Made by a program: the position numbers and the translations under genes. The notes beneath the pieces were generated by a model. That model was not told where the DNA came from. It made no database searches and worked only from the letters and a program-made list of their open reading frames with translations. 64,000 nucleotides of DNA from contig BDGG01000016.1 of assembly GCA_001949185.1 (NCBI GenBank), positions 62,001 through 126,000 of the forward strand, written 5' to 3'. Positions 16,501-47,053 of this stretch are shown in pieces; position 1 is the first letter of the stretch; each line of letters begins with the position of its first letter. Source of the stretch: Ramazzottius varieornatus. Its lineage: Eukaryota; Animalia; Tardigrada.

Positions 16501-19500
16501 ACTCTGTCCCGGCGTCAGTTTGCCATGGTGTAATAACGTCAGATACTTGTCCGTGTTGACGGCGACAAACTCCGAGTTTTGCAAACTGGCAGTATAGGCT
16601 GCATTGACCAACCCGGTATTGGTCAGTTGGAAGCTCAGACGGTAAACGCTGTGCATTTCCGTTGGGCCCAAGTCGACATGGTTGACTTGGAATTTACTCC
16701 CGACGTTATGAAGGACCATACGGCTGTCTGTGACGGGTAAGTATGCGAATTCCACCGCCGGTGAAATGACTTGATGCTCCAGGACGCACTGCAAAGGTAT
16801 ACTGCGCTTCTCCACCCGACATAACAAGGTAAGGTCGGTGGTGAAGGCTTTCTTCGGCACCACCGTCACTTCCACTTGGCTGTCTTTACCGGGGTAGATG
16901 ACTCCTTTCATGGGCACCACACTCCACTGGGCCTCATCATCATGGCCTCTAAAGTTCTCCATATCCATATGGAAGCGCAGTTGTTTCTGTTCTGTGGTGG
17001 ATAACTGTAGCTTGAACTGCTTCTTCAAACCCGGCAACATGGGCTTGAAGGACAAGACTCTTGGGCTCCATGTCACTTCCGCGTCGCGAACAAGAGCACT
17101 GAAAGACAAGTTGAAGCTGAGCAAGGGATATTGGACCAGGTTTAGCAGCCATCGCGAGGAGAAGGTACCCTGGACGTATGGACAAAACGTCACGGTCAGC
17201 AAGGTTCGCTTGCCGGCCGCCACAATCCCTTGCATGGCCGAGACTTCGAAGGGAGCTTTGTTGGCGTCATCGTGGTCCAAACAGGTTAAGTTAAAGTGGT
17301 ACGACTGGTCGGTGGGGTTGTCCAGATAGAGTTCGCTGTGAACACTGCCTTCCGTTCCGATAGCGTCGAAATGCAAGGTCCAGCCCGCTTCCTCCTCTGA
17401 CGAAGTAGGGTGTAACACTCCGTCGGGACCTACGCTGCTGATGTGCAGAATGGGCAGTTTGGCAGCAACGTGAACAGGTATAAACAAAGGAAGGGACTGA
17501 GGTCGCTGATTTGCAATGGTGATAAGAACAGCTGTCAAATATTCACCGGGGATTTCAGGGCGGAAGGACAGACTAAAGGCCTGCGTCGCTCCGGCTGCGA
17601 TGGTTCCCTCTACAGGTGTCAAGTGGAAAGCGGTGGAAATCGGAGAATAACCGGTGATGAAGCTAGTCAGTTCCTGTTGAAAGTGCGATGGAAGGATACG
17701 GCGTGGCATCAGCGTGGAAGGCTTGTCGGCTTGTGGTGGAGTGGCCGCCAACAGAGCACGAGCTTCTTTGCCTGAAGGACCTTTCACTGCCGGAGGGGAA
17801 CGCACCGGCATAATCTTCTCCAAGACCGTGGCTACGGCGTTGTCTTTCGACGCTTTCCGACCACGCTTCTTGTTGGTGCCGTCGCGGGTAGCCGACGATT
17901 CCGTGGAAGACTGGGCCGACGGTGTCCGGCTTCCAGTTTTGCCGCCTTTGGTGGGGATGGGCAAGCTTTGAACCGACAAGTTCTCATCACTACTGTCTCC
18001 TGCCGGTCTATCCACCGCCTCTTTGGCCAATATATTCTTTTGGGGAGTTGCACTGATAGTTGAGCTGGGGTCTTTAGCTTGTAGCGACGATATCTGCTGG
18101 TTGAGGTAAGCGGTACATGGGAGGTTGTCAGTGCAGAACTGCGCGCTGTAGCTGATGGCGGGCAAGCCGGTGTTTTTGAGATTGAAGGTAAACCGCCGTT
18201 CTTCCAGCACGTTGGTCTCCCTCAAGAGAATTTCCTGCGTTTCGCACTCATAACTGGCGTAGCCAACGGTACCACTGACCACTACGGGTAGACTTCTTTG
18301 GGTGTTGGTTTGCACGACCACGCTAGGCTCGCTTTGTGGTACCAGAACCCTGGTTTGGCCGACGGGAAGTACCTCCATGGCGGGTGGAACGCTGCTGGGT
18401 GTTTGAGCGATGGTTGCCAGTTTCAGCTTGTCGTCCTCCACGAGGAATTTGTGGGAGGATGGTTCGGTTTGAGGGATATTGACGGCCGGCGCTATCTGAC
18501 CCTTGGCCGGAACATGGTCAGCTGCTTTACGCTGGTTCGAGGTACGACGTTTCGAAGTGCCTTTGCGCGCTCCTTTGGAATCGGATGATATGGACTCTTT
18601 CTTGGTGGGTTTCTTGTCTTTAGAAGGGGTCTTAGCATTCAGTGTCTTTTTGGGATCCTTTCGGGTCTCGTGCTTGTTCCCTTCTTTGCTGTGCTCGTCC
18701 GAGTCGCTCTCGCCGTGATCACCGCTTCGAGCCAGCTGCGAAGTTTCCTCGTCTCCATTTGACTTGCTGTTTTCGGGCACGACCTGCAGTATAACATGAA
18801 GAAAATAAGATATGAAGAGTTAAGTGCAACGATTTGGAAAATGAATCAATACGAAACGCGAGCAAACTCTGGAAGATCGTTATCAAGAGTGGCGCACGTT
18901 CCCGGCCATTAACCAAAACATTGCGCCACTTGATAGAACGACCATCCCGATATTGTTTTCACGGCCTCCCCTTTCTTACCTGCAAGACTTGTCGTTCTGA
19001 ATTCCAGACAGCCTCTGGATCGTATCTGTCATCCACGGTGATATCGCTCAGCTGTAAAGAAGCGATCTGGACACTGTAGCGAGCTGGAGCATCATCGGCA
19101 AGGTGCAGCTTGGCCTGAAGATGGGCGGCAGTTTGCGGCTTGAGGTGGCCACTTTTGGGCATGATAGCCAGCCCACTACCCAGGTTGTTCCATTCGTAGC
19201 GAACCCACTGAGAAGATCGATTTACAATGTCGAAAGTCTGCAGCTGCGTCTGTCCCGGACAAACATCCCCGAAACCGAGATGGTACCGCTCTCTAATCAC
19301 ATCTTCCAAATCCATCTCCGTTGCGCTAATCAGACGCGCTCGCTCGTCGTATGCTACAGCCGGCAGTTTATCAAGGTAAACTTTATCACCGGGCACAGTG
19401 GCGCCCACCAACAGCAGAAAATTATCTGGGCAAGCCGACTCCCGACAAGACAGCTCCAAGTATCGCTTGAAAGTGCCCAATTTGTCGGGACAGAACCTGA

Positions 19501-22500
19501 TGAGAAACTGTTTAAAGTCTTTGGCCGCCAAAGCCATCTGACACCTCTTCGTGCCGACCTGCGTGCTGGTATCATCGTTCGACAAGATGGCGAATATACC
19601 GTCGGCCACAGTCAAACTGAGGGAAGCTTCCACAGGTATAACGGTATCGTTGTGTATGACCAGAGGAAGATCGTGGTGTTCGCCGACGGGCGTATTGTAG
19701 AAGTACAACGATCGTGGGATAGAGTTGGTTGGTAGATGAGCGGGTAGACCGAACCGAAGATTGGGCAAGATGCCTTCGGCAAAAATATCAAAGGTAAGAG
19801 CGGCAGCTAATCGAATGGTCGGAGGTCCCGATAGCTCGATGGAAATGTCGCAGACAATGTGGTATTTGTTGGTCAGCACGGGAGCGTAGATGAGGGTGAG
19901 GAAGGCATGTCGATGCGACTCGATGACGATAGTGTTGGAGCCGTTGATGCTGAAACCTTCAACGTTGGCCTTGATGGCCGCAGCAGCTGGCGCACCCCCT
20001 TTTCCGCTAGAAGGAGCACCAGTACTGGGTGCGCCACTACCGGCTGGTTGCAGACGGACAAGGATGACGGTAGTCAGGTTAGTGGGATTGCTCAGCTTGA
20101 AGCGAAGGTGACGTTTGGTGCCGACCAGCGTGTGTTGGACGAAAAAGTGTTTTCGCTTGGGTAGGTAAACGGACTGGTCGAGTAGCCATTGGGACAGGCT
20201 GTTGTCGGGAACGGACAAAACGTCATGTGGGAGGACCCGATGTTCAAAGAAGATGTCCTCGATATTCTTCGAGTCGATGGTCGGTGCTGCCACTTCGCCG
20301 GAAAAGTGGTAGGTGAGACCGTCAGGGTACAATAAGGGATTGCGATCACTCAGTTCTAAGAAGTGCGATTCATCGTAGTTGCCCACCAGGTCCGATCCAA
20401 ACTCCCCGGAGATCTGGGCGGTATCCCCGACTTTGACTGTGCCAGCCTGAGGCTTGACAATAAAAGGCATGGCGGAGTTTAGCAGGGAACCAGCCCCTTC
20501 ACCCTTCTTGTTCGAATGCGTACTGGCGGTCGACGCTTTGGCCATCACGGCGCTGTTGATACCACCCAAGTTCTTGCCCAGCGTCGGCGTGTCAGTTCTA
20601 TGAAACATAAACAGAGCTTATGCGCCAGCTAGTTTGAGGCGATAAACAAGCTCGACCAGATCGGGTTGTCGAGTGGCGCACGTTTTCAGTATCATTGATG
20701 AAAGCGTGCGCTACTTGAGAAAAAACCTGGTCGGGCTTGTTTGCCGCGTTCCTCTTTAAATTTTAAAAACGTGGAATCGTGCCGTACCTAGGTGGGACAG
20801 CATTTTGGACGTGGGAGACCAGCTTTTTGAAGGCGTATTGAATGTCAAAGTCTCCACTATTTTGTATGGTGATGGTTCTGGATCTCTTTTGGCCGGGAGT
20901 ACTGCAGGCGAAGCGCATGTGTCCAGCTGGCGGGTTGAGGACAAAGCGGGAGTACCGAGCTGCCAGTACAGTCTTGATGGGAATCTCCGCTACACGCTGA
21001 CTGCCTCGACTGGGATCAAGCACCAGGCATTTTACCAGCTTCTCTTGCTTGACTTCAATTTCGGCCAGTGGGCGAAAGACAACGTTGACGTTCATGGGTC
21101 GTTCGGTGCCACTCAACGTACCACTAGCCGGTTGGAACTCCAGCAGGTTAGATAGTTGCGCAGTGGGGTACGACGGTATGATGATTTCGTCGAGGGCGAG
21201 TACCAGCTGGAAGGCACAGTCACTCTTGCTTTTGTTCTTGATGGTCATCTGTCTCGTAACTTCCTCTTTGACTCTGCAGACACCAAAGTCCAGGATGGGC
21301 TCAGCCATTTTGGGGAAGGTGATATCCAAGATGAGATCGTAACTCTCTCCGGAAATTGTTAGGCTCTCCGTCTGTGAAAATTAACCCGATGAAAGTTGAC
21401 AGCGCATAGTATAGAAGTGGGCACAGGGTTCAACCACGATCGATATCTCAAGTGGCGCACATTAAGTCCTGCGTTGGCTGGCAGCGTGCGCCACATGAGA
21501 AAACGACTTGGCTGAACTCATCTGCCGAGGGTTCCATAAAACCACCGGCCTCCGCACCTGTAAAACCGTGCTTTCGGGTTCGTCAGTGCTGAACTCGATC
21601 TTGAGAGGCTTTTTGGAATGAACCACCGGCTTTTCCCCCGAAGACATGAACTTAACCGGTATGCTCTGAATTTGTGCCGTCGCTTTCAGAACTCCTTCCC
21701 GAGCTTCGAATGTGAACTCAGAGGGCAGAGTATCAACTCCTACCAACTTCCACCTGACAGGCACCAGACCCTGCTTATTGCGCAGCTCAATAGCTCCGAT
21801 AGCCATTTCTCGCAGAGGTACCTTCTCGACCATGACATTCTTCAGTACCACTTCCGCTTGCGGCTTGATACATAGAGCGGACAGGGTGAACTGGACCGGA
21901 GCCGGATTGAATTCGGTGAAAGCCAATACGGTGTCTTCACAACGACCCACTGCGGCTGGATGAGCGAAGAAGCGGATGACCTGTTCACTCTCTGCCGGCA
22001 CCTTGAATCGCTCGGGAAGGATGGAAAAGTCCAGCGTCAGCCATTTAGCTTCTTTGGGGTTATTACCGGCATGTTTGACGATGTTGAAATGGGCATTGAG
22101 CGCCCTCTTGGAGGTATTACGAACAGTCATCACCACCACATTCTGCGACCACTTATCGGCCAACACATCACTCTTCTTCTTGCCCACCAACAGCGGCCCA
22201 AAGAAGAGCTTCTGCTCAGTCGTGACAAATACCGGTGCTTTTCGTTCATCTTGAATAGCCGGAATACTCATTCCCGCAGGAAATAAATCACTCAACTGTC
22301 CGAAGAGGTTGGGATACTGACACTGACCATTGGCATCCAGTGCGACGCTGCCTGAAGCGTAATCGACAATTTCGAAATTATAGCGCTCCTTGAAACTTCC
22401 TTCCTTGTTGGAATGGAAGTTTAGTCGCAGGTACATCTTTTCATGTGCCAACAACGACCACCTGAAGTTGGTCAGCGGCTTCGAGTCTGGTTCGCTGGCT

Positions 22501-25500
22501 TTACGAGCTTTCATGAAGCTAGGATAGAGAGTTGATAGGTCGTCTTTGCCGGCTTTGACTTCCGGGTTGGCACCGGAAGTGCCGGGTTCGCGACCATTCA
22601 TGGCCGAGCCGGGCAGGCGCTGCTTGACGGCTGACTTGGCCGCTGTTCTGGAACGATCCACTCCCAGTGTGTTGCCTTTGGCTTTGTTGGCGTTATTATC
22701 GTTGGGCGCCTCTTTGGGCTGAGCGCTAGGTACGCGGTCACTGCTGACCGCCACGTACTGGGATATTTTTGCGCCCAACGGTGGACTCGTACTGGGCGCC
22801 GGGGAACCTTCTCCCACAAAGTGGAAAGGCGACTCAGGGGAGACGCCTTGGTCCAACACGGGCACGAAAGGCCGACTGCGCAATACGTACGTCTGGGCTG
22901 GCAACAGGGGCAACTGCGCTTTGGTCACAGCTTGAAGGACGGCCAAGTCCGGCAGGTACCACCATCTATGGGACTTTTGCTTATCGTCAAGGTTGAATAG
23001 CCGATCGTCGCCATTGCGAGTGTACTTTCGGTACAGCAGAATCAGCTTGACGCCGAAAATTTTCTTGCTGGCATAGCGAGCTTTGATGCGAGCGATGACA
23101 ACCTTGTCTTTGGCAGCTCGTTCGGCCTCTGAGCTCTCCTTGGTTCGCGCACGAACTTCCTTGCCTTTGACCGTTCGTTTCTTCTGGTTATTCGTCGTAA
23201 CGGGGATGGTGCCACTGACATCTTTATTCAAGTTGTCGGACTTTTGACTTGCTCGCTTCGTGTCTTGTTTATTCTCGCCCGCCCACTCGTTGATCAAAGT
23301 ACAGCATTCTTTCAAGCTGGAGAAGAAAGCTTTGTGTGAACGATAAGCGTTGCTTTTCCATAAGGCCACCTCACTGCCGTCTTCTTTCAGGGATGGCTGC
23401 ATGGACCAGTAGTCGCGCTTGCTACGACTGGCGCCATTATCCTTGGTCGAGGTGGCTGGATGGGAAGTGCCCGGCTTGTTGCTTTTGGTCTTGAAGACGG
23501 ACAGGTTGCGAGCGCTGGCCGCCGCTCGGATGATGGATCGGCCACCCGGCATTGACATGGTCTCCAGACTCTGCATATCCTTGTAGGTCGTTGGCGTCAC
23601 GCTGCCAACAAAGATACCAAACATAACTGAAATCTGTCGATTAAGCAAAACAAGCATGACAAAGGATATACTGTATTTGAATGTAGAGCTCTTGACGATA
23701 ACTAATGCGAAGTCGGCGAACAAACTCGACAGGTCTGTTTTCCCAGTGGCGTACAGTACCAGTGGTATTAACTGAAGGCGTGCGCCGCTTGAAAAGCTAA
23801 TGTTGTCGGGTTTATTTGCCGCAGTTCAGTTTAGCTACTCATGAATATTACATGAATAGTGAATACATGAATACTCATAAATACTCATGAATAGTCACTA
23901 CAGTGTATTAAGTTTCAGTTATGAGCGTTACCTGCCACTTTCGCTGGCCGTGATCAGTTTATGACTTGATGGCACTCGAGATCCCGCCTTGTCTTTTGGA
24001 CCCAGCGTGTCTTTGTTGGTCAAGATGACGGGCGGCTGCTTGGCCTCTGTAGCTCGATGACGTTGTCGCTGATCCCGCATCATCCGTAGTGTGTCAACGT
24101 AGGCATTGATAGCCAAGCTAGCTTTGGTTCTGGTGGAGCGCGGTAGCTGACGGTAGTGGCCTTCCGACAAGGTGCGCAGTCCGTTCATGCGCCGAAGAAC
24201 CGCGGCATAGGCTTCATGGTTATGCGAACGACGTTGACGCATTCTTCGCTGACGGAACTGACGGAAACTGTTGAGCAGAATGTAAGAGTACACTCGCTGG
24301 CGGTTGGCCACGACAGCCAGCAGCATCCTCAGAGTACTGGGGTAGTTGTCGGTAAAGTCACTCTGTAAATCGTCAAAGACTACGCCACGACAGCAGTCGG
24401 GCTGTTGCAAGCGCCAAGTGATCAGTTGACCAAGGAGCTCTTCCGGTATGACGGCACTGTTCAGCTCCCTCATCTCCTCGGTTTGCGCACTGCGATACCG
24501 AATCGGCTTTGAAGTAAAGGGCAGGTCTGGATCGCGTTCTTTATTGGCCAAAGGATCGTTGGCGGAGTTGAGGCCTTTATTGTGGCCCACGGCTGACTTG
24601 GCCGGCTTATTGATGGGCGCTCTTGGGTTGGCCTTGTTCTTGTCGCGCAGTCTGCTGTCCACGTCAGGCGGTGTCTGGATACTACGAACCGCACCCGGAA
24701 GACCAGAGCTCGTCACCGAGGAAGGGTTGACCAGAAAGTTGAGAATCTTGTGATGGATGGCTTCGGTGGGGGTCTGGATAGCGTCCATGATGACTTGGTC
24801 AATGTGCAGCAGCGGCAGCTGGTAGAAATGACTGAGGCGAGTGGCCAGGGTGGTTTTTCCACACGATGGCGGACCATGAATGATAACCACAACACCTATA
24901 CACAAACCAAGCTCTAGTATTCTCTACAGGCGATTACGTCTAAGTCGACAAAATTAGGATTGCGAACTCGGCAAACGAACTCCACAAGATCGATTGCCCA
25001 AGTGGCGCACGCTTTCAGCTAATAACACTTGAAACCTGCGCCACTGGGTATACAGCTCGTGTCGAGTTTGATTCCTCAAGTGGCGCGCTTTCTCAGTTTT
25101 CTCAACTGGAAGCGTGCGCCACTCAGACAAACAATCTTCTCGAGTTCGTTTGTCCGGCTCCCACATCGTACCTTTCTTATCGGTGTTTCTGGTGGTGGGT
25201 GAGAAATGGTCGTATTCCACCAGAGCCTTCTGGACCGGTGTTTGAAGAGCGCTGTGTAGAGCTTGGTATAGTTCCCGTTTCGTTCCAAAGGACCGGCCCA
25301 TCTGCTGTTCAAAGGCTTCGGTGTCCAACCGCTGGTTCAACAACGCCGCTATTCCCCCGCCCTCGTCGTTGGCCGCTTGACTGCTGACAAGCTCCTTGAC
25401 TGCTGGGACATCGGCTACAACCTCGCCAGTCGGTGACATGGCAGGCCGTCCAGTCTTCGATCGGTAGGCCTCTAAGATTTCGCCAGGCAGAGACCCACCC

Positions 25501-28080
25501 AACCGACGCAAAGGAAAGCGCACCTTCTCCATGGTGTGGAACTCCTGCACTTGCTGCAACACATAAGTCTCCAAGACATACTGCGGATCCAGTTCTCTAC
25601 AGAACAAGTCAATGGGGAACGGACAAGGGTTGTATAGCCACAGCTGCTTCTCTGCACCGCCGGCATAAGGTACCACACTGTCAAAGTGTACCACCGACGT
25701 GCTCAGCTCCAGTTCCGGACGAATGCCACACCCTTGGGCTTGGAGGAAGACCACCTGCTGACTGTGGGCAATCTCTAGCCGCCAACCATACTTATACTGC
25801 CGGTCTTCTTGTGGCTCGAAGGACACTTCGTGGTTGCTACACTGACCAGGCTGTAGAGTTCCACAGTAAGGCTGAAAGGCAAAGACCCTGGCCAGACTCC
25901 GCTTGTCCTTTAAGGCTTGTCGCTCTTTCGGCGCTAGACGCTTGCCTTCGCGTATGGTGTCAAAGTCCACGTCATGAGCTCGCCACAGACACGATAAGCG
26001 GCTGTTGTTGATCAGCTGGATGGTGATCTTGGCCAAGTGACCGCATCGTACCAGGCCGAAGTTGAGGGTGGGCAGCCTCAAGTTCCCTCCGACATCCTGA
26101 CAGAAAATGGTGGTGGATCGATGAGAGCGGACGATAGCGGGACAGCGTACTCGTACAGCCAGTTGTGCTTCTTCGATGCAGACTTTGAGCAGCACGGAAA
26201 ACGTCGGACCGCAGTTGGTGTTGAAGGAGACTGTGCAGGTCGAGTGTCCCAGTGGATAGTCGGCTGGGTTGAGGACGAAGCGGATAAGAGCTAGTTCTCG
26301 TGGCGGAAGACGGTTGTGCCGGTTGAACTCGATGGTCAGCTTCTTGCGTAGCCAGTCGTTGTTCTGCTTCAAGCTGAAGGTTAAGACATTCTCGCCCAAG
26401 TTTAAAACATGGATCAGACGAGCTGTCATCGGGCTTGAGATGCCCAGGAAGCCGAAATCCAATACGTAGCAAGTTCGTTGAGGTACACAGATGACGTCGG
26501 TGCAGTCCTGTAAAGCATAGTCGCCGGACACGGCCTCATCGTCTGGTTCCTGCAATAAGGCATGGCGCTTGTCAGAGTGGCAAAGGAACACTGATCCCAG
26601 TCACCTTACGGTATGTTTGCTGGCCTAATCAAGTTGACACATCTCGTGCCGGAAGTGGCGGGAAGACTGCCAGACAGGAAACGTCCACAACAACCTTCTC
26701 GAAGAGCACTTTTTGGCGTGCAGTATCTACACAGAAAACACATTTATGCGTTAGCTGTACCTGCCACCAGAGCCATTTCCCATCTGGCAGTTTCACAGCA
26801 TTTGTCAAAAGGAAATTTACATGCACGAAAGAATCAATTGTGTCATTTTTTGCTCATGCTAACTCGCACAAAGGTAAGCGGGACACAACGGCCGAAATGT
26901 CGGCCTCGATAAAGTCACTATGCCCACGTCGCACAATATTTTTTTATCAAAAGCCAGATTGAAAAACATGGGCTTCGATCGATAAAAATATCAACCAGGA
27001 AGTCTAAACTTGCTCGGTCTGTAGAATGTCTAAAAACCATACCTGTGTCAGATGTCAGAACCATACCTGTTGTTCGAAAACCGTTTCCCGGATATCCTGG
27101 TGCGGATGGCCGATTACCGGTAGATTGACTTGAACTGCGGCGGCCAGAGTATGGCCGAATACCCGCACTTGGAATGGTACTTCGCCAGGAATTTGCAGAC
27201 CGAAGAAGCGAGAAAAGTTTCCGGCTTGTGCCGATGGCAGATAGAAGACATCGAGGAGAGTTTCGGCGGCGGCCTGGACCACGCCCTGTAACGGTCTGAC
27301 ATACACCTTGTCCTCTTGCAGCGAGTCCATCGCTTGCTTCGTTAGCTCTTCCGCTTCCAGGACGGAGTATTGAATGACATGATGTCCCTTATTGATCAGG
27401 CGAAGCGTTTGACGACAGACTTTGCCTGCTACACAGTTGGTCAAATCGACGGCCTTGGGCTCCAGACTAACGTTGAGATGATGACAAGAACCCACCAACT
27501 GAATAGCTTGGACCGTTCCGCCGTCGGTGGTTATGAGCAGTTGAGCATGAACAGTGGTGATCCACAATGGGCAGAAGACGATAGTTAGTTGCTGCTCTGC
27601 CATAGATGCCATTGTTCCCGACCAGGGTTCCACCTGGAAGAAGTGGCCAACCTGGTCGTCGCATTTGTCTTTTAGCTGTCCGAAGGTCTCGTACCAGAAA
27701 GTGGGGATGACTGACTGGTTCAACCTATCATCTGCATCGCAAGTGTCAGGTCCATCTTTGTTGGCAAGATAAGGCTGGCCTGTAGTCGCACGGCGCCCAG
27801 CGAGCTTGGCCCAGAAGAAGGAAGATTCAGCATTGGGTACGGCGGTCAATCTGGTATCCGCCACGATGCTGCAGGAGAAGCGGAGGGTATCGAGCGAGCG
27901 GTTGACGATGTGGCATATCTGTCGGGTCGTCTCGAAGGGTTTGCAAGAGCCAAAGTCCATCAAGAGATGGGATACCCACAAGCCTCCCTTTTCTTCGCTG
28001 CTAATCGGGGCTCCCGCACGTCCGATCTTCTCCTTGGAGAGCGCCTGAATGACCTGGTGCATGTCCTGACTCCCGGCCAT
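13574..28080 (-). CDS. HYDIN: HYDIN-like axonemal central-pair protein (~4,180 aa; ASH/MSP-type repeats and a P-loop region)
   Basis: Eight exons join in frame (12,540 nt): 27067-28080, 25172-26549, 23932-24895, 21558-23601, 20788-21371, 18980-20597, 14560-18783, 13574-14287. Repeated 'DFG..V...L.I.N....P..G.L' modules, P-loop IIHGPPSCGKT, LFFGPLLVGK, LVNNWLQKSQSF and a C-terminal WVYYIK. Confidence 0.85.
14405..14502. repeat. Palindromic element in HYDIN intron 14288-14559
   Basis: Cores 14420/14455, 25-nt spacer. Confidence 0.85.
18855..18962. repeat. Palindromic element in HYDIN intron 18784-18979
   Basis: Cores 18888/18921, 23-nt spacer. Confidence 0.8.
20636..20750. repeat. Palindromic element in HYDIN intron 20598-20787
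   Basis: AAACAAGCTCGACCAG...CTGGTCGGGCTTGTTT arms; cores 20672/20706, 24-nt spacer. Confidence 0.88.
21415..21535. repeat. Palindromic element in HYDIN intron 21372-21557
   Basis: Cores 21451/21486, 25-nt spacer. Confidence 0.85.
23705..23826. repeat. Palindromic element in HYDIN intron 23602-23931
   Basis: Cores 23745/23780, 25-nt spacer; CGGCGAACAAACTCGAC left arm. Confidence 0.85.
23837..23895. repeat. Short imperfect tandem repeat (TACTCATGAA-like)
   Basis: Repeated CATGAATA/TACTCATGAATA units next to the intronic element. Confidence 0.6.
24961..25165. repeat. Palindromic element, double copy in HYDIN intron 24896-25171
   Basis: Cores 25001/25036 and 25079/25114, both with 25-nt spacers. 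Confidence 0.9.
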
Positions 28081-29273
28081 GTTTGTCGCAGTTGGCTCAC
28101 AGTGAGGGAAATTCTTGTTCCTAGCTTGAAGGGGGACAACTGTTGTTCAACAGGCAACAAGCGCTTCTCGCCATCCCCACCGAAACACCGAAAATGAATT
28201 TCAATCCACAAACACCAACTTCCGCCGACGGAAAAAAAATCACAGACTGAAGATTCGTGGTCCTGAAGACGAATTAAGTTGCATACACACAAGATATTAG
28301 GCTCGCTAACGATTTCTGGAGCAAGAATGGACTATCTGAGACTTTTACCTAAGGAGCTGCTGTACGAGTGAGCGTGATTATCGCGAATTTGTGATGGCAC
28401 TGCTATGATCCTCTAAACGGTGCTCCCCTTGTATCAGGAACGTCCGTTAATTGTTCATACATCAGGGTCTTTTAACTATGCAGGTACTCCAGTTGTTTGC
28501 TGAGCAACACTTGAAGCGAAAACGGAAGACCTTGGAGCCAGAAGTGTGCCATCTATGCCTCGTACCGTTCTGTAGCTCCAGATTCCACCAAGGTACTGGT
28601 CGTTAAGTCTATGGGCCTACAACTGACTGAACAAGGAAGCCCCCGACCTTCCTTCCTAACTAAGCTTCGCGCGCGCGCGAAGCTTTCGTGTTCGTACGGA
28701 GCCGACGTCGCGCGAGAACACACGGGACTGGAGACGATCTTGCCAAGAAATATCTTTAATAGGAAATGACATGGTAACAAAAATGAAAAGGTTTAAATTA
28801 TAAACAAGCAGCGCATCGTCAGACAGATGCAACGAGTCCAGTCTGCTCGTCGCGGTCGTACAGATAAATTATGGAAAGAGCAGACAAAGCTTTCAGCACA
28901 ATTTCATACAGCGAGCGATACAGCCAACCTGATCAAAAGGCAATAAGTAAAAATTCTCAGCTACAGTAAGAAGCGCTACTCAGAAGATCCACTAATAATT
29001 AGAATGAATGATATCCTGGCCCAAAGTATACAGGACAGAGAGTAACGTAGCAGCATACAGGAAACGTTAGATCCCTGGTCTCGTCCTCATCGTTGACTCA
29101 GTTCGTGTCTCTATGCGCTACAAGCAACGAAGCTTATTAAAAGGTCTGCAGGTTTATTTTGAGTATGTAAACAAGAAACAGATTTCCAGGCGGTTGATAT
29201 ATGGCAGAAGCACAGAAGAAGACGAATAAGAAGGAGGAGCAGGAGCGTAGGCTGAAATTAGAAAGCTGACGGC

Positions 29274-38556: not shown

Positions 38557-39237
38557 TCAGTGTTGGTAATTCGATCGAAGGCAACCAATCTGACAGAAAG
38601 CTGACATAAGAAGATGATAACGGAGGCTGCTTCGCAGACCTGTGTATTCGAAATTGGTCCACCAGCAAGACGGAAGATTCTATACCGATCAGATGTGCAG
38701 TCTGTAGGTACGGGTAAAGTATCTGCGCGGACAGGAGACTCTTTCGTGGGTCGATACTCGGGTTGATGCTGCTCAGATGCTACAGACGACACTGTACCTT
38801 TGAGGTAACTCTTTCACACACAATTCCTTCGCTATCGATTTAAGGGTGCGTCCGAGCTCCAGGCTTCCCGTTTGTTCCGTTGATCTTCTTCCGCATAGGT
38901 GGCGCCACCTTCTGGAAAGGACTACACGACTGCGAACTCCGTTTCGGGAACCACGAAAGGAAAGGAACCAGAAAAGATTTATGGACACGCTTTCCTTGAT
39001 GTAGGACCTTGCGCTTTTTGAAAGGTAGCTCTCAGGGAAAACAGTTTTCCTATAGGGTATAGTACCTGCTGCAGTAAATGGTTGAATAACTCCGAAATGT
39101 TTATTAATGCGGCGAAATTGGGTAAGATACTGACTCTGATACTGTATATTCAAGAAAATTGAATCGAAATTAACAGGCAGCAGTCACAGTGTACCAGCGT
39201 AAATTTTCTCAACAAAGAAAGGCTTGACCACAGGATG

Positions 39238-41506
39238 TCAGATGTATCGGTTTGTTCCCGAGTCACTCGAGCATGCATTCGGTTTTCCGAATTCCAGGGT
39301 TTCCGTGATGGTTACGCACTGGCAGGCTTCATTTTCAACTTCCAGCTCGTCCAGATACTCGACGGAATACATCACGTCATCCCCGTTCAGCACCACGTTC
39401 TCGTCATCCTGCAAGCAGGAGAACTTATCATTCACGATTCGTCGTCACAGTGTAACTTCATTAGTTCGGTATGCTTTGTCAAAATTTTCGGTTTACAGAG
39501 CGGTGGATCGCTGCAACGAAAAAAAGAGATTGTTGGATCTCTCGGAGAATTACTCAAGCCAAGAGAACATTGGTATAATATGATGGTAACGACTTAACGC
39601 CACTCGGAAATGTGGCCTAACAGAGCGTGGATGATTGCTTTTAAGGAAGCGGAAGTGCCAGCAGCTGCCAGCGACATATGCACCATCCCCAACCATCTTT
39701 CCTCAGGACGCGAAAGCCATAGAAAACGCAATTTCATAATATTTCCATCAAGGTGAACCGTTCGACTATTGTATCGGAGCGGAGATTATTTAGTACGTTT
39801 CTTGTTTTCGAATGATTGGCCAACCTTGACCGAAAACAACAAGGAAGTGAATGCAAAAGAAATTGGCGAAAACGGGCGGTTCATTCTCGGAAAAAATGGG
39901 ACAGTACTAGTATTAAAAGAGCAATTGTTGATTAAACGGAGCCACTTTTGCATTTGAAAAGAAGCAATAACCTGAGCTGTCGGGGATGGAATGAGGGAAT
40001 ATGGCTAGGGAACCGTGGCCATATCCTTCCTTTTGTGTACGATATAGGGGGCTTTCCGAATGGTTACACAATACTGTAATGTTTCTGCACGATGCTTCAG
40101 CGGCGTCATTTACATGATAAACAAATCCTAAGAGACCATCTTTCTTTACACTGATTGTGAGTAAAGTTTCTCTTGACTGATCCTAGCCCGTTCTCAGCGC
40201 ACTAAGCCCAAGAGCCCGCGCCGGCCATCACAGTCTATCAGGCCCACATTTGCACCCACCCAATGTTAACAGCAACCCATCAGTTTATAACACCACAGAA
40301 ACATTCCACAGTCCTGACAGAAAAATCCCCCATGCAAATGTCACGCTAGCATTTGCGTACGCGGAAGCTGATTGAGAATCAAGAAAAGAGTTACTGGAAA
40401 TCCGCGGCTTCATTGTCAGCATATTCATCCACTTGCCTACGTGGACGCTTGTCAGCGCAACGTCCAGATGTTTGCAGGTCCGTGAAGCCTTCGGTGTTTT
40501 CTATAGACTTCCGGAAAAGTTAGTCTTCCTCAGCGTTCTATTTTGGATAGTGTTCTCGTTTTGTTGGTTGCTTTTAGCAGGATGGAATCGTAACTATGCT
40601 TTGTCCAGAGTTTGCAGAAAGTTTGACCCTAGGGAGCACCTCGACACAGTTTCACACTTTGGCGCTAATGGAACGATGAACACAGCCGCAAGCGGTGGAC
40701 CCATTACGAGCCATCTGTGTCTCCCAGAAAGTCTTTCATCCTCTCCCGAACAGAAAGTCCGACAAGAAGGTACCGACCGAACAAAGTAATTACTTTTTTA
40801 CTACTGCCTATTAGTGCCATAAAACAGTATTCCCATTTGGTAACGGGGCACGAGGAATATGGAACTGTAAATTTGATGGTTACTTACGCAAACGTCGAAA
40901 GAAAAGGGTTGGGTGGTTTCACTCAAGGCCACTTTTTTGACGAACAAAATGATGCCGAAGATTAGTAGGGAAACGGCGGCACAGATGAGCGGCGTAAACA
41001 AATGACTGAGGCCATCTTGATGATTAGCCTGCAAGACCACAAAAAACTGTGATTATACATCTTTGAAATTTCTCTATTGCCGAAGTTCGTATTTTCGTCC
41101 CAATTGACTTTCCCTTACCAATGTTGAGCTGGATTTTGAATAGGAAAAATCTGAAAATCAACACAGGTCAGTATCAGCGGAAGCAATTGCGGACCGTAGA
41201 TAATGGCCTTAAACTTCAGCTTAGCAAATTCGAAGCCTGTGCAGTAGTGGAGTTGTATCCGCTCCAGGATTCATGGTGCAACAAGGAGATTTCTCACCTT
41301 GCGATTCCAAAAGATGGGACCGAGAGAGGTGATTGGTAAAGACCGGTGCGAAATTAAGAAGGTTCTCGGAAACGTTTTGTTCTGCAGTCGTAGACACCGG
41401 TAGTATGACTGGAGAACTAGACGCGTTGGTTGTGGAGGTGTTGTGAAGAGGTCCCGAATTTTCGACAGCTGCAGATTGATTGCGATTAGAAAGGATAGGT
41501 GCCACT
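39238..41506 (-). CDS. Possible uncharacterised single-pass membrane protein (Ser/Thr-rich ectodomain, TM helix, acidic tail); boundaries uncertain
   Basis: Minus-strand ORF segments follow plausible acceptors: S/T-rich NTSTTNASSSPV, hydrophobic LICAAVSLLIFGIILFVKK and acidic DDENVVLNGDDVMYSVEYLDELEVENE. No recognised family and no start codon found. Confidence 0.35.
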
Positions 41507-43106
41507 ATAGCAGAAAAAGCAAAGATTTTTCTTCCCAAGATGAGTGCAAGTTCAAGACCACGCACGCAAACAGGATGCGGAAGAAAGTTTCCCGCCTTCG
41601 AGGGTTGACATGCAGACGTAGAGAGCTAGTGTGGGTCCGCTGAGGTCTAGCTGCCTAATTATGACTTACTTAAACTGCGTAATGCAATTTCCGCAAACTG
41701 ATCAATGGCAAGTGCTCTTGACACCACTGACAACAACACAGCGCCAATATTCAATCTCCCGTTGTTGACGTGAAAGAGCTGACAATTAGAGGACCAACCC
41801 GGAAGTTCCATGACACAGAAAATTCCTCCCTGTAACGTTAAATCAGATAGTTTGAGCGAACTGACTCACAATCTTTGTTTCAAAATGCAAACTGAAGAAG
41901 TATACTTACCTAAACAGTTAAAGTAAGCGAAAGGATATCAGAAAAGAAAATGGTCCTCAAAAGCGGACATTTCTCTGCGGTCGTTCAAGCAGGGAACCGA
42001 CGTGGGACAGAAAGAGGCGTATAACCTTGATGATGGATGCGACGCGGACTAAGATCGAAGAGCAGATCCGAGCAATTACATCAGCGGGAAGAACGTGTGT
42101 CTTATGGGAATCCTGGAGTCAAGCATCCACATCCGCCTTTCGCTGCAGGGAACAACCGTTACGTACTGCGGATCTTCAGCAGCTGTGGCCTGCGGGAAAC
42201 TGGAGGAAGCGCCCAACATCGATCAAGGACTTTCACAACAGTATCTAAAGATGCAAAGTATATTTTAGTACGGTAAACATCGCGACATAGAATGTATACC
42301 GAGAACCGGAAGCGGATGTGGCCGGAACGGGACATACAATAAAGGAAGGGCGTGGTGAAGGCCTGAAGCGGCAAGTGCGATGCTGAAGCGTAACAGTAGG
42401 AGAGGTTGATACAAGAGAGAGTTGTGATACGTAATATCATCCCCTTCCTTCCTTCTACAGTTCACGCTGATCCCTACAGTCAATTCAAGCTTCCCTAAGT
42501 CTAATCCTTCCTCTGCTGTGGAACCGAGATTTGACGGATGAACCTTCAATCGAATCTTCAAGATAGAATCGAACGTATTGTGAAGCAATGTAAGAACAAC
42601 GCACACTTTAGACGGATTTCCGAAGGCAACCTACGTGTAGGCGGCCGAAGTTAAATTGAAGAATTAATCTTCAATCGAAGAATTGATTTTCAATTGAAGA
42701 CTTAATTTTCTTTGAGGTTTATTCCGAAGATTTATCTGACTGCGGAAGTCCTTTAGATTCGTAAGACTCAAAAAGAGAGAAAATTTTACTGGAGCCGGTT
42801 GTTGCCAAATGTGCGCATCATCCCATTCAAAGCTTGTAAAAATAATCAGAACACAGAAACGACGGAAAGAACATTTTGCAAAACAGTCCTCCCAAGCTTG
42901 CTCTTCAGTGAAGACAAAAAGTGTAAATTGAAACAAGAACTTAGAAAAAGATTTTAAACACAAAACACTATTGCAAATTCCTGAAGCAAGACCTAAAAAT
43001 CATTTTGAAAACGAACACTACGAGCACATCGGATGATAAAAGTTCTTTGAGAAAGGTAACATGCAGTCGAGATTGGGAACATCGAGAAGGTTTCGCCGTG
43101 AAGAAC

Positions 43107-45235
43107 CTATTCGTAACCGATGCCGCTGACAGCACCATAGCGAATTTCCTCGTCCCAGTGGGCACCGGGATGAGCACCAGTACCCATGGTATTAATAACG
43201 TTGATCTCCTTCAAACCGTTATTGATTACCTTACCCATGGAACCATGCATGCCACCGCTGTTACCGTTACCGTTCCGACCCCCGTTGCTGCCGCTGCCCT
43301 TGCGGTTCTGACGAGTCAGTTCCAGTGGCTGTCCGTGCTTCTGGATCTTCTGAATTCGGCGACGCTGTGTGGTCCTACAGAGCACAAAGAGGGAACTCAA
43401 TATTGAGCAGTCTCTGAATACGTGTGTGAAGACCAGGAAGTAGTGCGAAAGAGTTCTTGACGTTACTCACACTGTGGAAATGTGTGCTCCAATGCCAGCC
43501 ATCTGACAGGCCTTGCTAATACCCCACACTCCCATATTGGCCGGAATGAATTCCTGCAATGAAAGAAAATTCGTCCGATGGGAGAGTTTACCTGACTGAA
43601 AACTGAAACCTCGGACAAACTGTTTCCTATTTTCCTGACGAAAATTTGGAATGAAGTGTGACAGTTTACATACGTAATTGACAACCATTCCTTGCGAGTA
43701 GTCCAGCATCATCTCGATGTTGCTTCGATCGGGAATCTCCACGCCATTCTCGTCCTTCCAATCAGCTTCCTTCCACTTGGGCCAGTTGACCGTCATCGCT
43801 ACACAAAAGAGACAGTCACACCAGCTCTCCTCGATGTTCGTTGGAGACAGTTATCAATGGGTTTCTTACCGTCGACCAGGTATTGGGAGGCTGAGATAAT
43901 CGTCAGTTCGACATATCCACGAGCTCTAGCGCGGTTGATGGCTGCGATGGAAGACCTGGTTGGGAAATGGTCGATCGAAAAGTAGAAGTTTGCCACGTTT
44001 CTTACCTCGAACTGCGGCGATGAACTCGGCGCGATGCTTGCGTGGAAAGCCTATGAGTGGTGCTTGAACGTTCATGCCCGACTCGAAGCCAAAGTAAACG
44101 CCTATGCCGCCACCACGCGCTGATCGACCTTGGATGGGAGCTGCTCCTGCCACGAAGGCCAACGCCGCGTTCTCCGGCATGACTTCCCAGTAAGCAAAGT
44201 GCTCAGCTTCCGCCAGGTTGCTGCATACCTTCACCACGAAATCCGGATGACCGTTGGTCTGCTTCTCCGCAGCAGCTCTACAACAACAAGGACAAGGAAG
44301 TCTTAGTTCGACTGCAACAGCGTCAGAATCCTGGTGCAGTACGTGTATCGCACGCTATGGAACCAGGAAGTATCGCAACTACCAATTATGGCGCAGCACA
44401 GAAACATGTATGACAGCATCGTTTGCCATTGTACCTGATTAAGCTTTGGTTTGGCAAGACTTGCGGTTGGAAACGGATCCAGGAAATAAATCAAGAATCA
44501 ACTTACCGGTCGGTGTAGACTCCTGGCTGATGTCCATTCTGGACCGCGAAGAACTGCTGAGCAGGTCGCGCTGGACGCTTCCGCGGAGCGCCGGAGCCGC
44601 GAGCTAGTTGAGCATTCGCCGGAAGTTCAACGACAATCTGCTGTGGAGGAGCCACTTTAGCCTGAAATCGAAAGAAGTCTAAAAGCTATTCTTCAGACCG
44701 CGGGTTTCAAGGTGGAGTTTTACTTGCTCTAGTTGCTTACCTGGTTCTGCCCTTGTTGCGGTTGTTGTCCTTGCCCACCACGTCCTCCTCGGCGACGTCC
44801 TGTGCCAGCTCCTCTATTACCATTCTGACCTTTCTGTCCTGCTTTTCCCTCATTCTGCGATCCTTGCTGTTGTTGCTGTTGTTGTTGTTGTTGACCTTGG
44901 TTGGCACCAGCGTTCCGCGTTCTGGGTTTTGGAGCAGCAGTAAGGCCGTTGACGTAGTCTTGAGCAGCCTTGCGAGTTGGAAATTTGTGGACATCGGAAC
45001 CTTTAAAGTTAATCGTCTCTTTTAGGGTATCAGGCCTGCGAAGAAACATTCAACAACCTTCCACCTACAGTGAGCTCCAACCAGTGAGAAGACGAAAGGC
45101 TTACCAGTTATCGTAAACTCCCGGGTGACGTCCGGTCTTCACTCCATAGAAGATCGGGGCTTGAGCCTGACCGGCAGTTAGGGTGTTTAGCTGGTTTCCG
45201 CCAGCTCCTCCACCACCACTAGCCCTGGTGACCAT
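43107..45235 (-). CDS. RNase H1-like protein: two hybrid-binding domains and a catalytically degenerate RNase H domain
   Basis: Eight in-frame exons. HBD1 IFYGVKTGRHPGVYDNW...HKFPTRKAAQDYV; HBD2 FFAVQNGHQPGVYTDR...VKVCSNLAEAEHFA; RNase H fold GGIGVYFG, HRAEFIAA and WPKWKEADWK. Confidence 0.85.
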
Positions 45236-46138
45236 ACTGGAGGAATAGAGGAGAAAATTCAAGTAAAGATGGAACAGAATCCAGATGATTTCACCTGGAG
45301 GATTAATTGACTTACCTCACGTTAACTCCTTCGCCGCCATCCTTTTGAGCCACTAAGACGTAGCGAGCGCCGTTTCCCTTTACAGCCTGCATTGTGAAGA
45401 TTCTTTCTGCAAAGGAAAATCAATAAGGAAGTAATTCTCACCCCGTCAGAACAGAGACGATGTGCCGAGGAAAACAACCAAACAGTCTGAACAAGAGGGC
45501 CGCTGATTGTGAACGAGCATTCGAGCGCGAGTAAATAGCGTAACGCAAATGGTACCTTTGCATTGATTTCACCAAACGGGAAGGAGTAAGATCCGGGACA
45601 GAGTCCAAAAGAGACGATGAAAAGGCTGTACAAAGGGAAGTTCCAGCAGGTAAACTGGCACGTTGATTTGGCCGAAAAGCGGATCTTGTTGATGCTGATT
45701 GGCAATGATTGCTGAAGACGAAAAAAGATGGAAGATCTGTATCTCATGGGCGTGCCGTATAGTTTTAGCCTTACCTGACCATTGTCCAGAATCTTCGGAC
45801 ATCCCACCGGTGGTGATATCCGTCCCGTGCCACTTTTGGCGGTCTTTTCAGTAAACTTTCCCCTTGGATGAAGACTGGCTTGTCTTTGTGGGGCGCACGC
45901 GTCATCGTATTCGCAATGACTCAGCGTATCTCGCATTGCCCATCGGCCTCGGGCCTTGTCTAGTGCCCATGTGGCTTGATTTGTTGACAATCTGGGCAGG
46001 TTTGAGCTGCTAAAGTCTCAACTTCAACCTTTGTCATGCCAAGGTGCCTCCTTCGTCGGATATCTTTAATGACCTAGTTTACAGCCACAGCAGCCTTGAC
46101 ATCCGACGACGTATAATCCTCCAGCTTCCCGTGAGAAG

Positions 46139-47053
46139 ATGACAGAGTCCAGCTCGGAGGCGACCAAGAGGCTGAACGTCAAACGCCAAACACTGGACGA
46201 TGCCTACGCTGCTCCTGCCAATTTCCTGGAAATCGACGTGATTAACCCCATCACCCATGGTGTAGCCAAGAAACGCTATACGGATTATGAAGTTCGAATG
46301 CGGGTAAGGATATTAGGCTGCGAATAACGGACATGAGCCTAGAAATTCGTACCGGAAATGTATCACTTTAAAATAATTATGTTTCCAGACAAATCTTCCC
46401 GTTTTCAAGCAGAAGGAGTCCTCCGTCCGGCGTCGATACAGCGACTTTGAATGGCTCAGGAATGAACTAGAAAGGGACAGCAAGGTATGTGAACCCTCTT
46501 TCTATCCGCGGACATTCCGAGGAATTGGTTTGAGAAACAGTTTGTTTCGTAGATCGTAGTGCCGAATTTACCTGGAAAAGCTCTCAAGAAGCAGATGCCG
46601 TTCCGACAGGACGACGGTATATTCGAAGAAGAGTTCGTTGAGGATCGTAGGAAGGGCTTGGAAGTTTTTGTCAACAAGTATGTAGTCTTGAAGCATTTCT
46701 GGGAAGAGAAACCGTAACAAGTTAACCTGAACGTAGCAGGTAGCTGCTGGCCTTGTCGATGCTCAACGGTGCGCCATCCGGTGCGATGTGTCACGCATGG
46801 GTACAGTTTGCTGGTTTACCAGCAGGCACGTGCATGATGCCGCTGGCGCATCTGAAGGCGATGTCGACCAATGGAATTCAATTTAATTTCAGGGTTAGAC
46901 TGGTACTTCCGGTTGCAGTGTGTAGTGTAAGTCGCATTTCCTTGTAGGATTGCTGGACATCCGCTCGCACAAAACGAGAAGTGTCTTCACATGTTTCTCC
47001 AGGATGTCACCATTGACAAGAATTACGTGCCAGGAAAGATTCGCAACACGTGA
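46139..47053 (+). CDS. SNX3: Sorting nexin 3/12 (PX-only)
   Basis: [52 protein letters not shown] and IAGHPLAQNEKCLHMFLQ. Four exons. Confidence 0.95.

What the first reader, a model, noticed from the sequence alone, without database searches (positions are those of the whole stretch)
43107..45235. Pseudo-RNase H1: two hybrid-binding domains, a Q/G-rich linker and a dead catalytic site
The spliced ORF is intact. Aligned by eye to human RNase H1, three of four catalytic carboxylates are lost: YTDG becomes FVAG (D145 to A), YTDS becomes ISAS (D210 to A), and EADRLA becomes KACQMA (D274 to C). H264 becomes N; only RAE (E186) remains. Two N-terminal HBDs are retained (as in yeast Rnh1), separated by poly-Q and RRRGGRGG low-complexity sequence, and there is a G/N-rich tail. 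Established knowledge: catalytically dead RNase H1 (D210N) binds R-loops without cleaving. Inference: a natural RNA:DNA-hybrid or dsRNA reader/protector, possibly condensate-forming.
Basis: partly seen in the sequence, partly recalled or inferred. Interest (0 to 1): 0.78.

Follow-up and report, generated by a model that had tools for sequence, protein, structure and literature searches.

The report
Catalytically dead tardigrade RNase H1
The desiccation-tolerant tardigrade Ramazzottius varieornatus has an intact, spliced and transcribed copy of the RNA:DNA-hybrid nuclease RNase H1 that lacks three of its four metal-binding acids but has kept the residues that hold the fold together, so it is likely a non-cutting RNA-duplex-binding adaptor whose target is unknown.

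Summary
Observation confirmed. D145/D210/D274/H264 are Ala/Ala/Cys/Asn; only E186 is kept (1 of 258 homologous domains lacks three acids). It descends from tardigrade RNase H1 (84/99) on a branch 6-10 times longer than the intact Hypsibius and Paramacrobiotus enzymes. Fold residues are kept (14 of 18) and polar site residues lost (3 of 13 kept); neutral decay matched this in 1 of 2000 simulations. The 'D210N-like hybrid trap' reading is weakened: N151, R179, T181, N240, W221 equivalents are gone, the basic protrusion is acidic, and HBD2 has lost W43, Y29 and K60. HBD1 and a basic RGG linker are the likely binding parts. No orthologue was found, and whether this species also has an active RNase H1 is unresolved. 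The scan's notes report similar dead RNase H1 genes in a fungus and giant viruses (unchecked).

The parts
45316..45585 (-). Exon 1: 5' leader (contig ends at 45516-45585) and first 26 codons from ATG at 45392; leader holds short upstream ORFs (ATG 45563, 41 aa; ATG 45520, 24 aa) and an out-of-frame ATG at 45340 (7 aa)
45105..45236 (-). Exon 2: Met27 (45235), Gly-rich stretch, first half of HBD1
44741..45035 (-). Exon 3: second half of HBD1, poly-Q and RGG linker
44507..44661 (-). Exon 4: end of linker, first half of HBD2
44006..44277 (-). Exon 5: second half of HBD2, start of RNase H domain with A263 (D145 site, 44150-44148) and E304 (E186 site, 44027-44025)
43870..43941 (-). Exon 6: A328 (D210 site, 43891-43889)
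43674..43798 (-). Exon 7: protrusion segment, acidic here (net -3); N339 (W221 site), D358 (N240 site)
43471..43553 (-). Exon 8: N382 (H264 site, 43538-43536) and C392 (D274 site, 43508-43506)
42800..43374 (-). Exon 9: basic extension of the last helix (predicted to residue 417), G/N-rich tail, stop at 43107, 3' UTR to at least 42800 (an AATAAA lies at 42723)
44948..45154 (-). HBD1 (residues 54-99): keeps Y29, R35, W43, F53, K60, F61 equivalents; R57>D, F58>V, K59>H; phase-2 intron in the W43 codon
44187..44556 (-). HBD2 (residues 204-250), degenerate: Y29>F, W43>R, R57>V, F58>V, K60>V, K59 kept; phase-2 intron at the same codon as HBD1
43482..44177 (-). Pseudo-RNase H domain (residues 254-400)

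Best explanation
RvY_17603 is an expressed, fast-evolved descendant of tardigrade RNase H1 that has lost three of four catalytic acids and is therefore predicted to be a non-cutting protein, likely a duplicate repurposed as an adaptor that would bind RNA duplexes or RNA:DNA hybrids loosely through HBD1 and its basic RGG linker while the retained RNase H fold would serve as a scaffold. Shown: gene structure, splicing, loss of the acids, tardigrade RNase H1 ancestry (moderate support), internal duplication of the HBD with its intron, selective retention of fold residues. Inferred: no cleavage; binding by HBD1 (Y29, W43, K60 kept) with weakened DNA-strand specificity (R57, F58, K59 changed), helped by basic patches (linker net +14, residues 401-430 net +7); HBD2 and the RNase H domain no longer read the hybrid in the canonical way and act as protein-contact or spacing modules; an ordinary active RNase H1 exists elsewhere in the genome.
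For: Splicing in 4 of 4 runs. Acids lost with gap-free alignment; no Asp/Glu within 5 residues of the three lost sites in sequence. HBD1+RNase H tree puts it with Hypsibius and Paramacrobiotus, 84/99, branch 2.51 against 0.24 and 0.39; both relatives have all four acids and one HBD. Of positions at least 90% conserved in 257 homologues it keeps 14 of 18 hydrophobic/Gly but 3 of 13 polar (Fisher p 0.004); of positions shared by the two tardigrade enzymes 29 of 51 against 5 of 35 (p 1e-4); neutral simulation reached that gap in 1 of 2000 runs and ended stop-free in 19 of 2000. Residue roles from passages of PMC9603397 and PMC6846478. Both HBDs carry a phase-2 intron at the W43 codon, where human exon 2 begins (c.129; PMC9194440).
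Against: No orthologue found, so no dN/dS and no independent sign of what is conserved now; the selection signal covers the whole branch and does not prove present-day constraint. Support for the tardigrade placement is not starred; trees on the RNase H domain alone left it unplaced or beside centipede paralogues. No active RNase H1 of this species was seen among the proteins fetched or in the first 8,991 rows of the genome paper's gene table. The substrate-face loop is more basic than usual (R299, K300, R302), and several changed residues (N182, W221, S233) had little effect on binding in the human assay, so the domain may still bind nucleic acid. HBD1 itself scores above only 10 of 256 homologous HBDs. 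The pLDDT 92 model rests on an alignment of active enzymes; single-sequence folding failed.
Confidence: 0.48

Rival explanations
1. It is a natural D210N-like trap: it binds RNA:DNA hybrids selectively with both HBDs and the dead domain, shielding R-loops or primers from active RNase H.
For: Architecture and fold of RNase H1 are kept (Z 22.9, rmsd 1.7 over 152 residues to 2qkb, alignment-driven model); HBD1 keeps Y29, W43, K60; engineered dead RNase H1 binds hybrids selectively (PMC8266564 passages); W225, F213-like and S211 equivalents kept.
Against: N151, R179, T181, N182, W221, N240 equivalents changed; protrusion net -3; HBD2 lacks W43, Y29, K60; HBD1 lacks R57, F58, K59.
Confidence: 0.15
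2. It no longer binds nucleic acid specifically at all; the three folded domains are protein-interaction modules on a disordered, possibly condensing scaffold.
For: All three domains have lost nucleic-acid contacts to some degree; mean IUPred2A 0.52 in the table of PMC9592077; linker 62% Q/G/N.
Against: HBD1 keeps the near-invariant Y, W, K, F surface residues over a very long branch; RGG motifs and basic patches; not among 336 T-DRYPs (absence from a mass-spectrometry list is weak).
Confidence: 0.14
3. It is not a duplicate but the species' only RNase H1 gene: R. varieornatus has given up RNase H1 catalysis and kept a binding remnant.
For: No other R. varieornatus RNase H1 among the proteins fetched or in gene rows up to about RvY_08990; it carries the ancestral HBD intron and an upstream ORF plus two in-frame starts; only one RNase H1 each was seen for Hypsibius and Paramacrobiotus.
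Against: Only 120 of 773 hits were listed and Paramacrobiotus RNase H1 was itself missing from that list; over half of the gene table was cut; RNase H1 is needed for animal mtDNA maintenance (established; disease link in PMC9194440); the N-terminal extension does not look like a mitochondrial presequence by eye, unlike the Paramacrobiotus long isoform (crude measure inconclusive); synteny uninformative.
Confidence: 0.13
4. It is a spare duplicate under relaxed selection, still transcribed from a promoter shared with the neighbouring sorting-nexin gene and on its way to loss.
For: Very long branch, no orthologue, head-to-head position about 550-600 bases from the PX-domain gene's ATG at 46139.
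Against: Open 492-codon frame, eight exact introns, and class-selective conservation that neutral decay gave in 1 of 2000 runs.
Confidence: 0.08
5. It keeps some nuclease activity through E304 and substitute acids.
For: E304 kept; 14 acidic residues lie in the domain; Pfam score above cut-off.
Against: D145, D210 and D274 sites are Ala, Ala, Cys with no indel nearby; a single D210N change leaves negligible activity (PMC8266564). Side-chain distances in the model could not be measured.
Confidence: 0.02

Closest known systems
Eukaryotic RNase H1 (human RNASEH1, PDB 2qk9/2qkb/6vrd; Hypsibius OQV15745.1; Paramacrobiotus XP_055329305.1)
   Same: HBD plus RNase H type-1 domain, 27-34% identity in the domain, same predicted fold, same intron in the HBD W43 codon.
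   Different: Three of four acids and H264 lost; phosphate-pocket and RNA-contact residues changed; acidic protrusion; second, degenerate HBD; poly-Q/RGG linker; 90-residue tail; branch 6-10 times longer.
Engineered catalytically dead RNase H1 (D210N, R-loop probe)
   Same: RNase H1 scaffold without a working metal site.
   Different: D210N keeps the whole binding surface; this protein has changed most of it, so selective hybrid trapping cannot be assumed.
Multi-HBD RNase H1 (fungal Rnh1-type and various animal proteins)
   Same: Two HBDs before the RNase H domain; 22 of the 152 other proteins first fetched had two or more.
   Different: Those keep their acids; here the second HBD is an internal duplication not seen in the two other tardigrade enzymes, and is degenerate.
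Caulimovirus P6/TAV Cauli_VI domain (recalled, not tested)
   Same: An RNase H1-type HBD used for duplex binding without catalysis.
   Different: P6 has no RNase H domain; no specific relationship was tested.

Membership tests
RNase H1 (active enzyme) | RNase H type-1 domain by sequence | tested here: met
   Pfam RNase_H 37.7 bits over cut-off 25.8; human RNase H1 chains E 6e-17
RNase H1 (active enzyme) | RNase H fold with protrusion | tested here: met
   Model pLDDT 92, Z 22.9 to 2qkb, alignment-driven; Atlas model TM 0.65 to RNase H1 clusters
RNase H1 (active enzyme) | N-terminal hybrid-binding domain | tested here: met
   Two Cauli_VI stretches; HBD1 keeps Y29/W43/K60, HBD2 does not
RNase H1 (active enzyme) | Four catalytic carboxylates D-E-D-D | tested here: not met
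   A263, E304, A328, C392
RNase H1 (active enzyme) | Hybrid-contact residues of the catalytic domain (N151, R179, T181, N182, W221, N240) and basic protrusion | tested here: not met
   Q269, F297, R299, K300, N339, D358; protrusion net -3; roles of T181 and N240 are recalled
RNase H1 (active enzyme) | Cleaves the RNA strand of hybrids | not testable with these tools
   needs an assay
Tardigrade RNase H1 lineage | Groups with Hypsibius and Paramacrobiotus RNase H1 | tested here: inconclusive
   84/99 with HBD1+RNase H, 91 in FastTree; unresolved on the domain alone
Pseudoenzyme (dead but maintained) | Expressed, intact, fold conserved while catalytic residues are lost | tested here: met
Pseudoenzyme (dead but maintained) | Active paralogue present in the same genome | tested here: inconclusive
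   No genome held; none seen in partial listings
D210N-like hybrid trap | Binding surface intact | tested here: not met
Dehydration-condensing tardigrade proteins (T-DRYPs) | Listed among the 336 T-DRYPs | tested here: not met
   RvY_17603 occurs once, in the all-proteins column only

The most novel reading that the evidence does not exclude
R. varieornatus has turned its RNase H1 gene itself into a non-cutting duplex reader, with no active RNase H1 left in the genome; an animal would then maintain mtDNA and R-loops without RNase H1 catalysis, and the dead protein would be a candidate guard of RNA:DNA hybrids in a desiccation- and radiation-tolerant animal.
Probability: 0.13. Interest if true: 0.85.

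Novelty: new variant of a known kind. Interest (0 to 1): 0.48.

Why it matters
Dead RNase H1 is known as a laboratory probe; I found no paper on a natural one in an animal or on this gene (the library lacks most subscription papers). Databases label the protein 'ribonuclease H', which is probably wrong. A maintained pseudo-RNase H1 in a genetically tractable extremotolerant animal allows a direct test of what the RNase H1 scaffold can do without catalysis, and one tblastn would settle whether this animal has any active RNase H1. It is so far a single-species gene, which limits its weight.

Tried and rejected
No whole genome is held, so the search for an active paralogue could not be run. Orthologue searches: word search with exon 5 (only itself), with residues 200-410 (itself and three fungal-type proteins), HMMER over 1.84 billion representatives (best others 25-35% identical; relatives over 50% would be hidden in its own cluster), metagenome contigs (none), two runs of other organisms laid at 80% (nothing laid; no proof of absence). 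No run is on record as RNA; RNA origin rests on the spliced joints. Polymorphism test failed: no differences in any run laid. Single-sequence fold failed. The tail gave no usable Atlas hit. No tandem paralogue in the window. P0076, an unnamed metagenomic protein lacking two acids, joined this protein in two trees but did not group with tardigrades once this long branch was left out: rejected as an orthologue. A link to centipede paralogues was neither supported nor rejected (p-AU 0.35). Synteny: Hypsibius TTC8 lies on another scaffold than its RNase H1 and next to PP1-beta, so local order is not kept and says nothing. Expression tables: the row for RvY_17603 lies beyond the cut of the stored file; no hits in supplements of PMC9145152, PMC6652013, PMC5531438 (files 25-27 not searched). 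No complex prediction was run: no candidate partner.

Full report
What is there. The finding lies on the minus strand. Eight GT-AG introns of 64-229 bases give an open frame of 492 codons from ATG 45392 to the stop at 43107. A search with exon 5 returned one protein, RvY_17603 of the tardigrade Ramazzottius varieornatus (GAV07808.1), identical to my model. All eight joints stand in single contigs of 4 of 4 runs from 4 studies, with no other letters; none of these runs is on record as RNA, but the joints, and a loose end at 45528 that I recall as a cDNA template-switch oligo, indicate transcripts. An unspliced contig of another run matches 43522-44405 exactly. Contig depth cannot give an expression level.

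The catalytic site. Pfam finds two Cauli_VI domains and RNase_H. Against human chains the alignment has no gap near the sites; with orangutan RNase H1 as the numbering proxy, D145, E186, D210, H264, D274 correspond to A263, E304, A328, N382, C392. Of 258 domain rows (this one included; isoforms and near-duplicates not removed) 241 have all four acids and only this one lacks three. The nearest other acids are 6 or more residues away in sequence; distances in three dimensions could not be measured. An alignment-driven model (116 rows) has pLDDT 92 and matches human RNase H1 at Z 22.9, rmsd 1.7 over 152 residues (Foldseek); because the alignment is of active enzymes this is weak independent evidence, and folding from the single sequence failed.

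Origin. Hypsibius (OQV15745.1) and Paramacrobiotus (XP_055329305.1) each gave one RNase H1 with all acids and one HBD. With HBD1 and the RNase H domain joined (25 chosen rows, LG+G4), this protein falls with them at 84/99, on a branch of 2.51 against 0.24 and 0.39; FastTree on 258 domains gave the group 91, with one unnamed protein inside. On the domain alone its place was open or beside centipede paralogues, so the placement is likely, not shown. Both HBDs have a phase-2 intron in the codon matching W43; human exon 2 starts at c.129, the third base of codon 43 (PMC9194440, passages). The gene is thus an intron-bearing descendant of animal RNASEH1, and the second HBD arose by internal duplication. 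No orthologue was found.

Is it maintained? Of positions at least 90% conserved among 257 homologues it keeps 14 of 18 hydrophobic or Gly residues (three of the four changes are V>I, V>I, L>M) but 3 of 13 polar ones (p 0.004; the homologues were found with this query, which may favour shared core residues). Of positions shared by the two tardigrade enzymes it keeps 29 of 51 against 5 of 35. Neutral substitution to the same overall loss reached that gap in 1 of 2000 runs and ended without a stop in 19 of 2000 (substitutions only). Selection has kept the fold and let the working surface go, at least over most of the branch.

What it can still bind. In human RNase H1, W43A abolished and K59A/K60A cut about tenfold the HBD's hybrid binding, and N151A and R179A had the largest effects in the catalytic domain, while N182/Q183, F213, W221/W225 and T232/S233 changes did little (PMC6846478, one passage); Y29, K60, R57 hold DNA phosphates and W43, F58 the sugars (PMC9603397, passages). 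HBD1 keeps Y29, R35, W43, F53, K60, F61 but has D, V, H for R57, F58, K59; HBD2 has lost Y29, W43, R57, F58 and K60. In the RNase H domain N151, R179, T181, N182, W221, S233, N240 are Q, F, R, K, N, E, D, and the protrusion has net charge -3, lower than all but 1 of 257 homologues. Against this, the loop before E304 is unusually basic, the linker is net +14 with two RGG, and residues 401-430 are net +7 on a predicted extension of the last helix. The likeliest anatomy is one working duplex-binding HBD with blunted DNA-strand preference, basic low-complexity help, and two folded but resurfaced domains. For condensates there is only composition (62% Q/G/N, no aromatics); the protein is not among the 336 T-DRYPs (PMC9592077, supplement search and passages).

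The open question. No genome is held. No active R. varieornatus RNase H1 appeared among the fetched proteins, but only 120 of 773 hits were listed, and 72 of 222 fetched proteins that score above the cut of the representative list were not in it. The genome paper's table (PMC5034306, supplement search) names no RNase H in its first 8,991 rows and is cut there. Synteny was uninformative (PMC6925440 supplement rows). I take a duplicate as more likely because animal RNase H1 serves mtDNA maintenance (established knowledge), but leave 0.13 for sole copy.

What is known. Searches for tardigrade with RNase H1 or ribonuclease H, for the gene id, for RNASEH1 with the species, and for RNase H1 pseudoenzyme paralogues gave nothing relevant (listings only, plus passages of PMC13560373). 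Passages of PMC8266564, PMC8387031 and PMC11717427 (a C. elegans RNase H1 paralogue predicted to bind RDE-3) were read for context. Supplements that were cut or not searched may hold expression data. The scan's own notes list dead RNase H1/HI genes in a fungus, two giant viruses, a phage-plasmid and soil bacteria (unchecked), none similar by sequence, which suggests repeated independent loss.

Verdict. Real feature, correctly seen; a maintained pseudo-RNase H1, a new variant of a known kind, known from one species; the specific hybrid-trap and condensate claims are not supported by the residues. Interest 0.48.

Noticed in passing
window 45563-45235 (-): Leader has upstream ORFs (41 and 24 codons), an out-of-frame ATG, and two in-frame starts (Met1, Met27), reminiscent of the uORF and two-start control of mammalian RNASEH1 (recalled); the extension does not look like a mitochondrial presequence.
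   Followed up: partly
window 45585-46139: Head-to-head arrangement with a PX-domain (sorting nexin-3-like, name recalled) gene, about 550 bases apart: probable shared promoter.
   Followed up: partly
window 38600-42700: About 4 kb between the TPR (TTC8-like) gene and the 3' end of this gene; four ORFs tested had no Pfam match.
   Followed up: partly
window 13574-28146 (-): Very large gene with long exons, HYDIN-like by eye (name recalled, not tested); neighbours include MPG, a PH-domain (CERT-like) gene, an alpha/beta hydrolase, a BRD4-CDT gene, a KH-domain gene and an armadillo-repeat gene.
   Followed up: no
proteins P0005, P0009, P0036, P0076, P0149: Other RNase H1 relatives with lost acids: a triple-domain protein with two degenerate domains (P0005), an ostracod double domain, a centipede paralogue with Lys at D145, and two unnamed proteins lacking two acids.
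   Followed up: partly
protein P0150: 1321-aa unnamed protein from contigs up to 196 kb with an intact RNase H1 domain fused at its C-terminus to a long unrelated region, possibly giant-virus.
   Followed up: no
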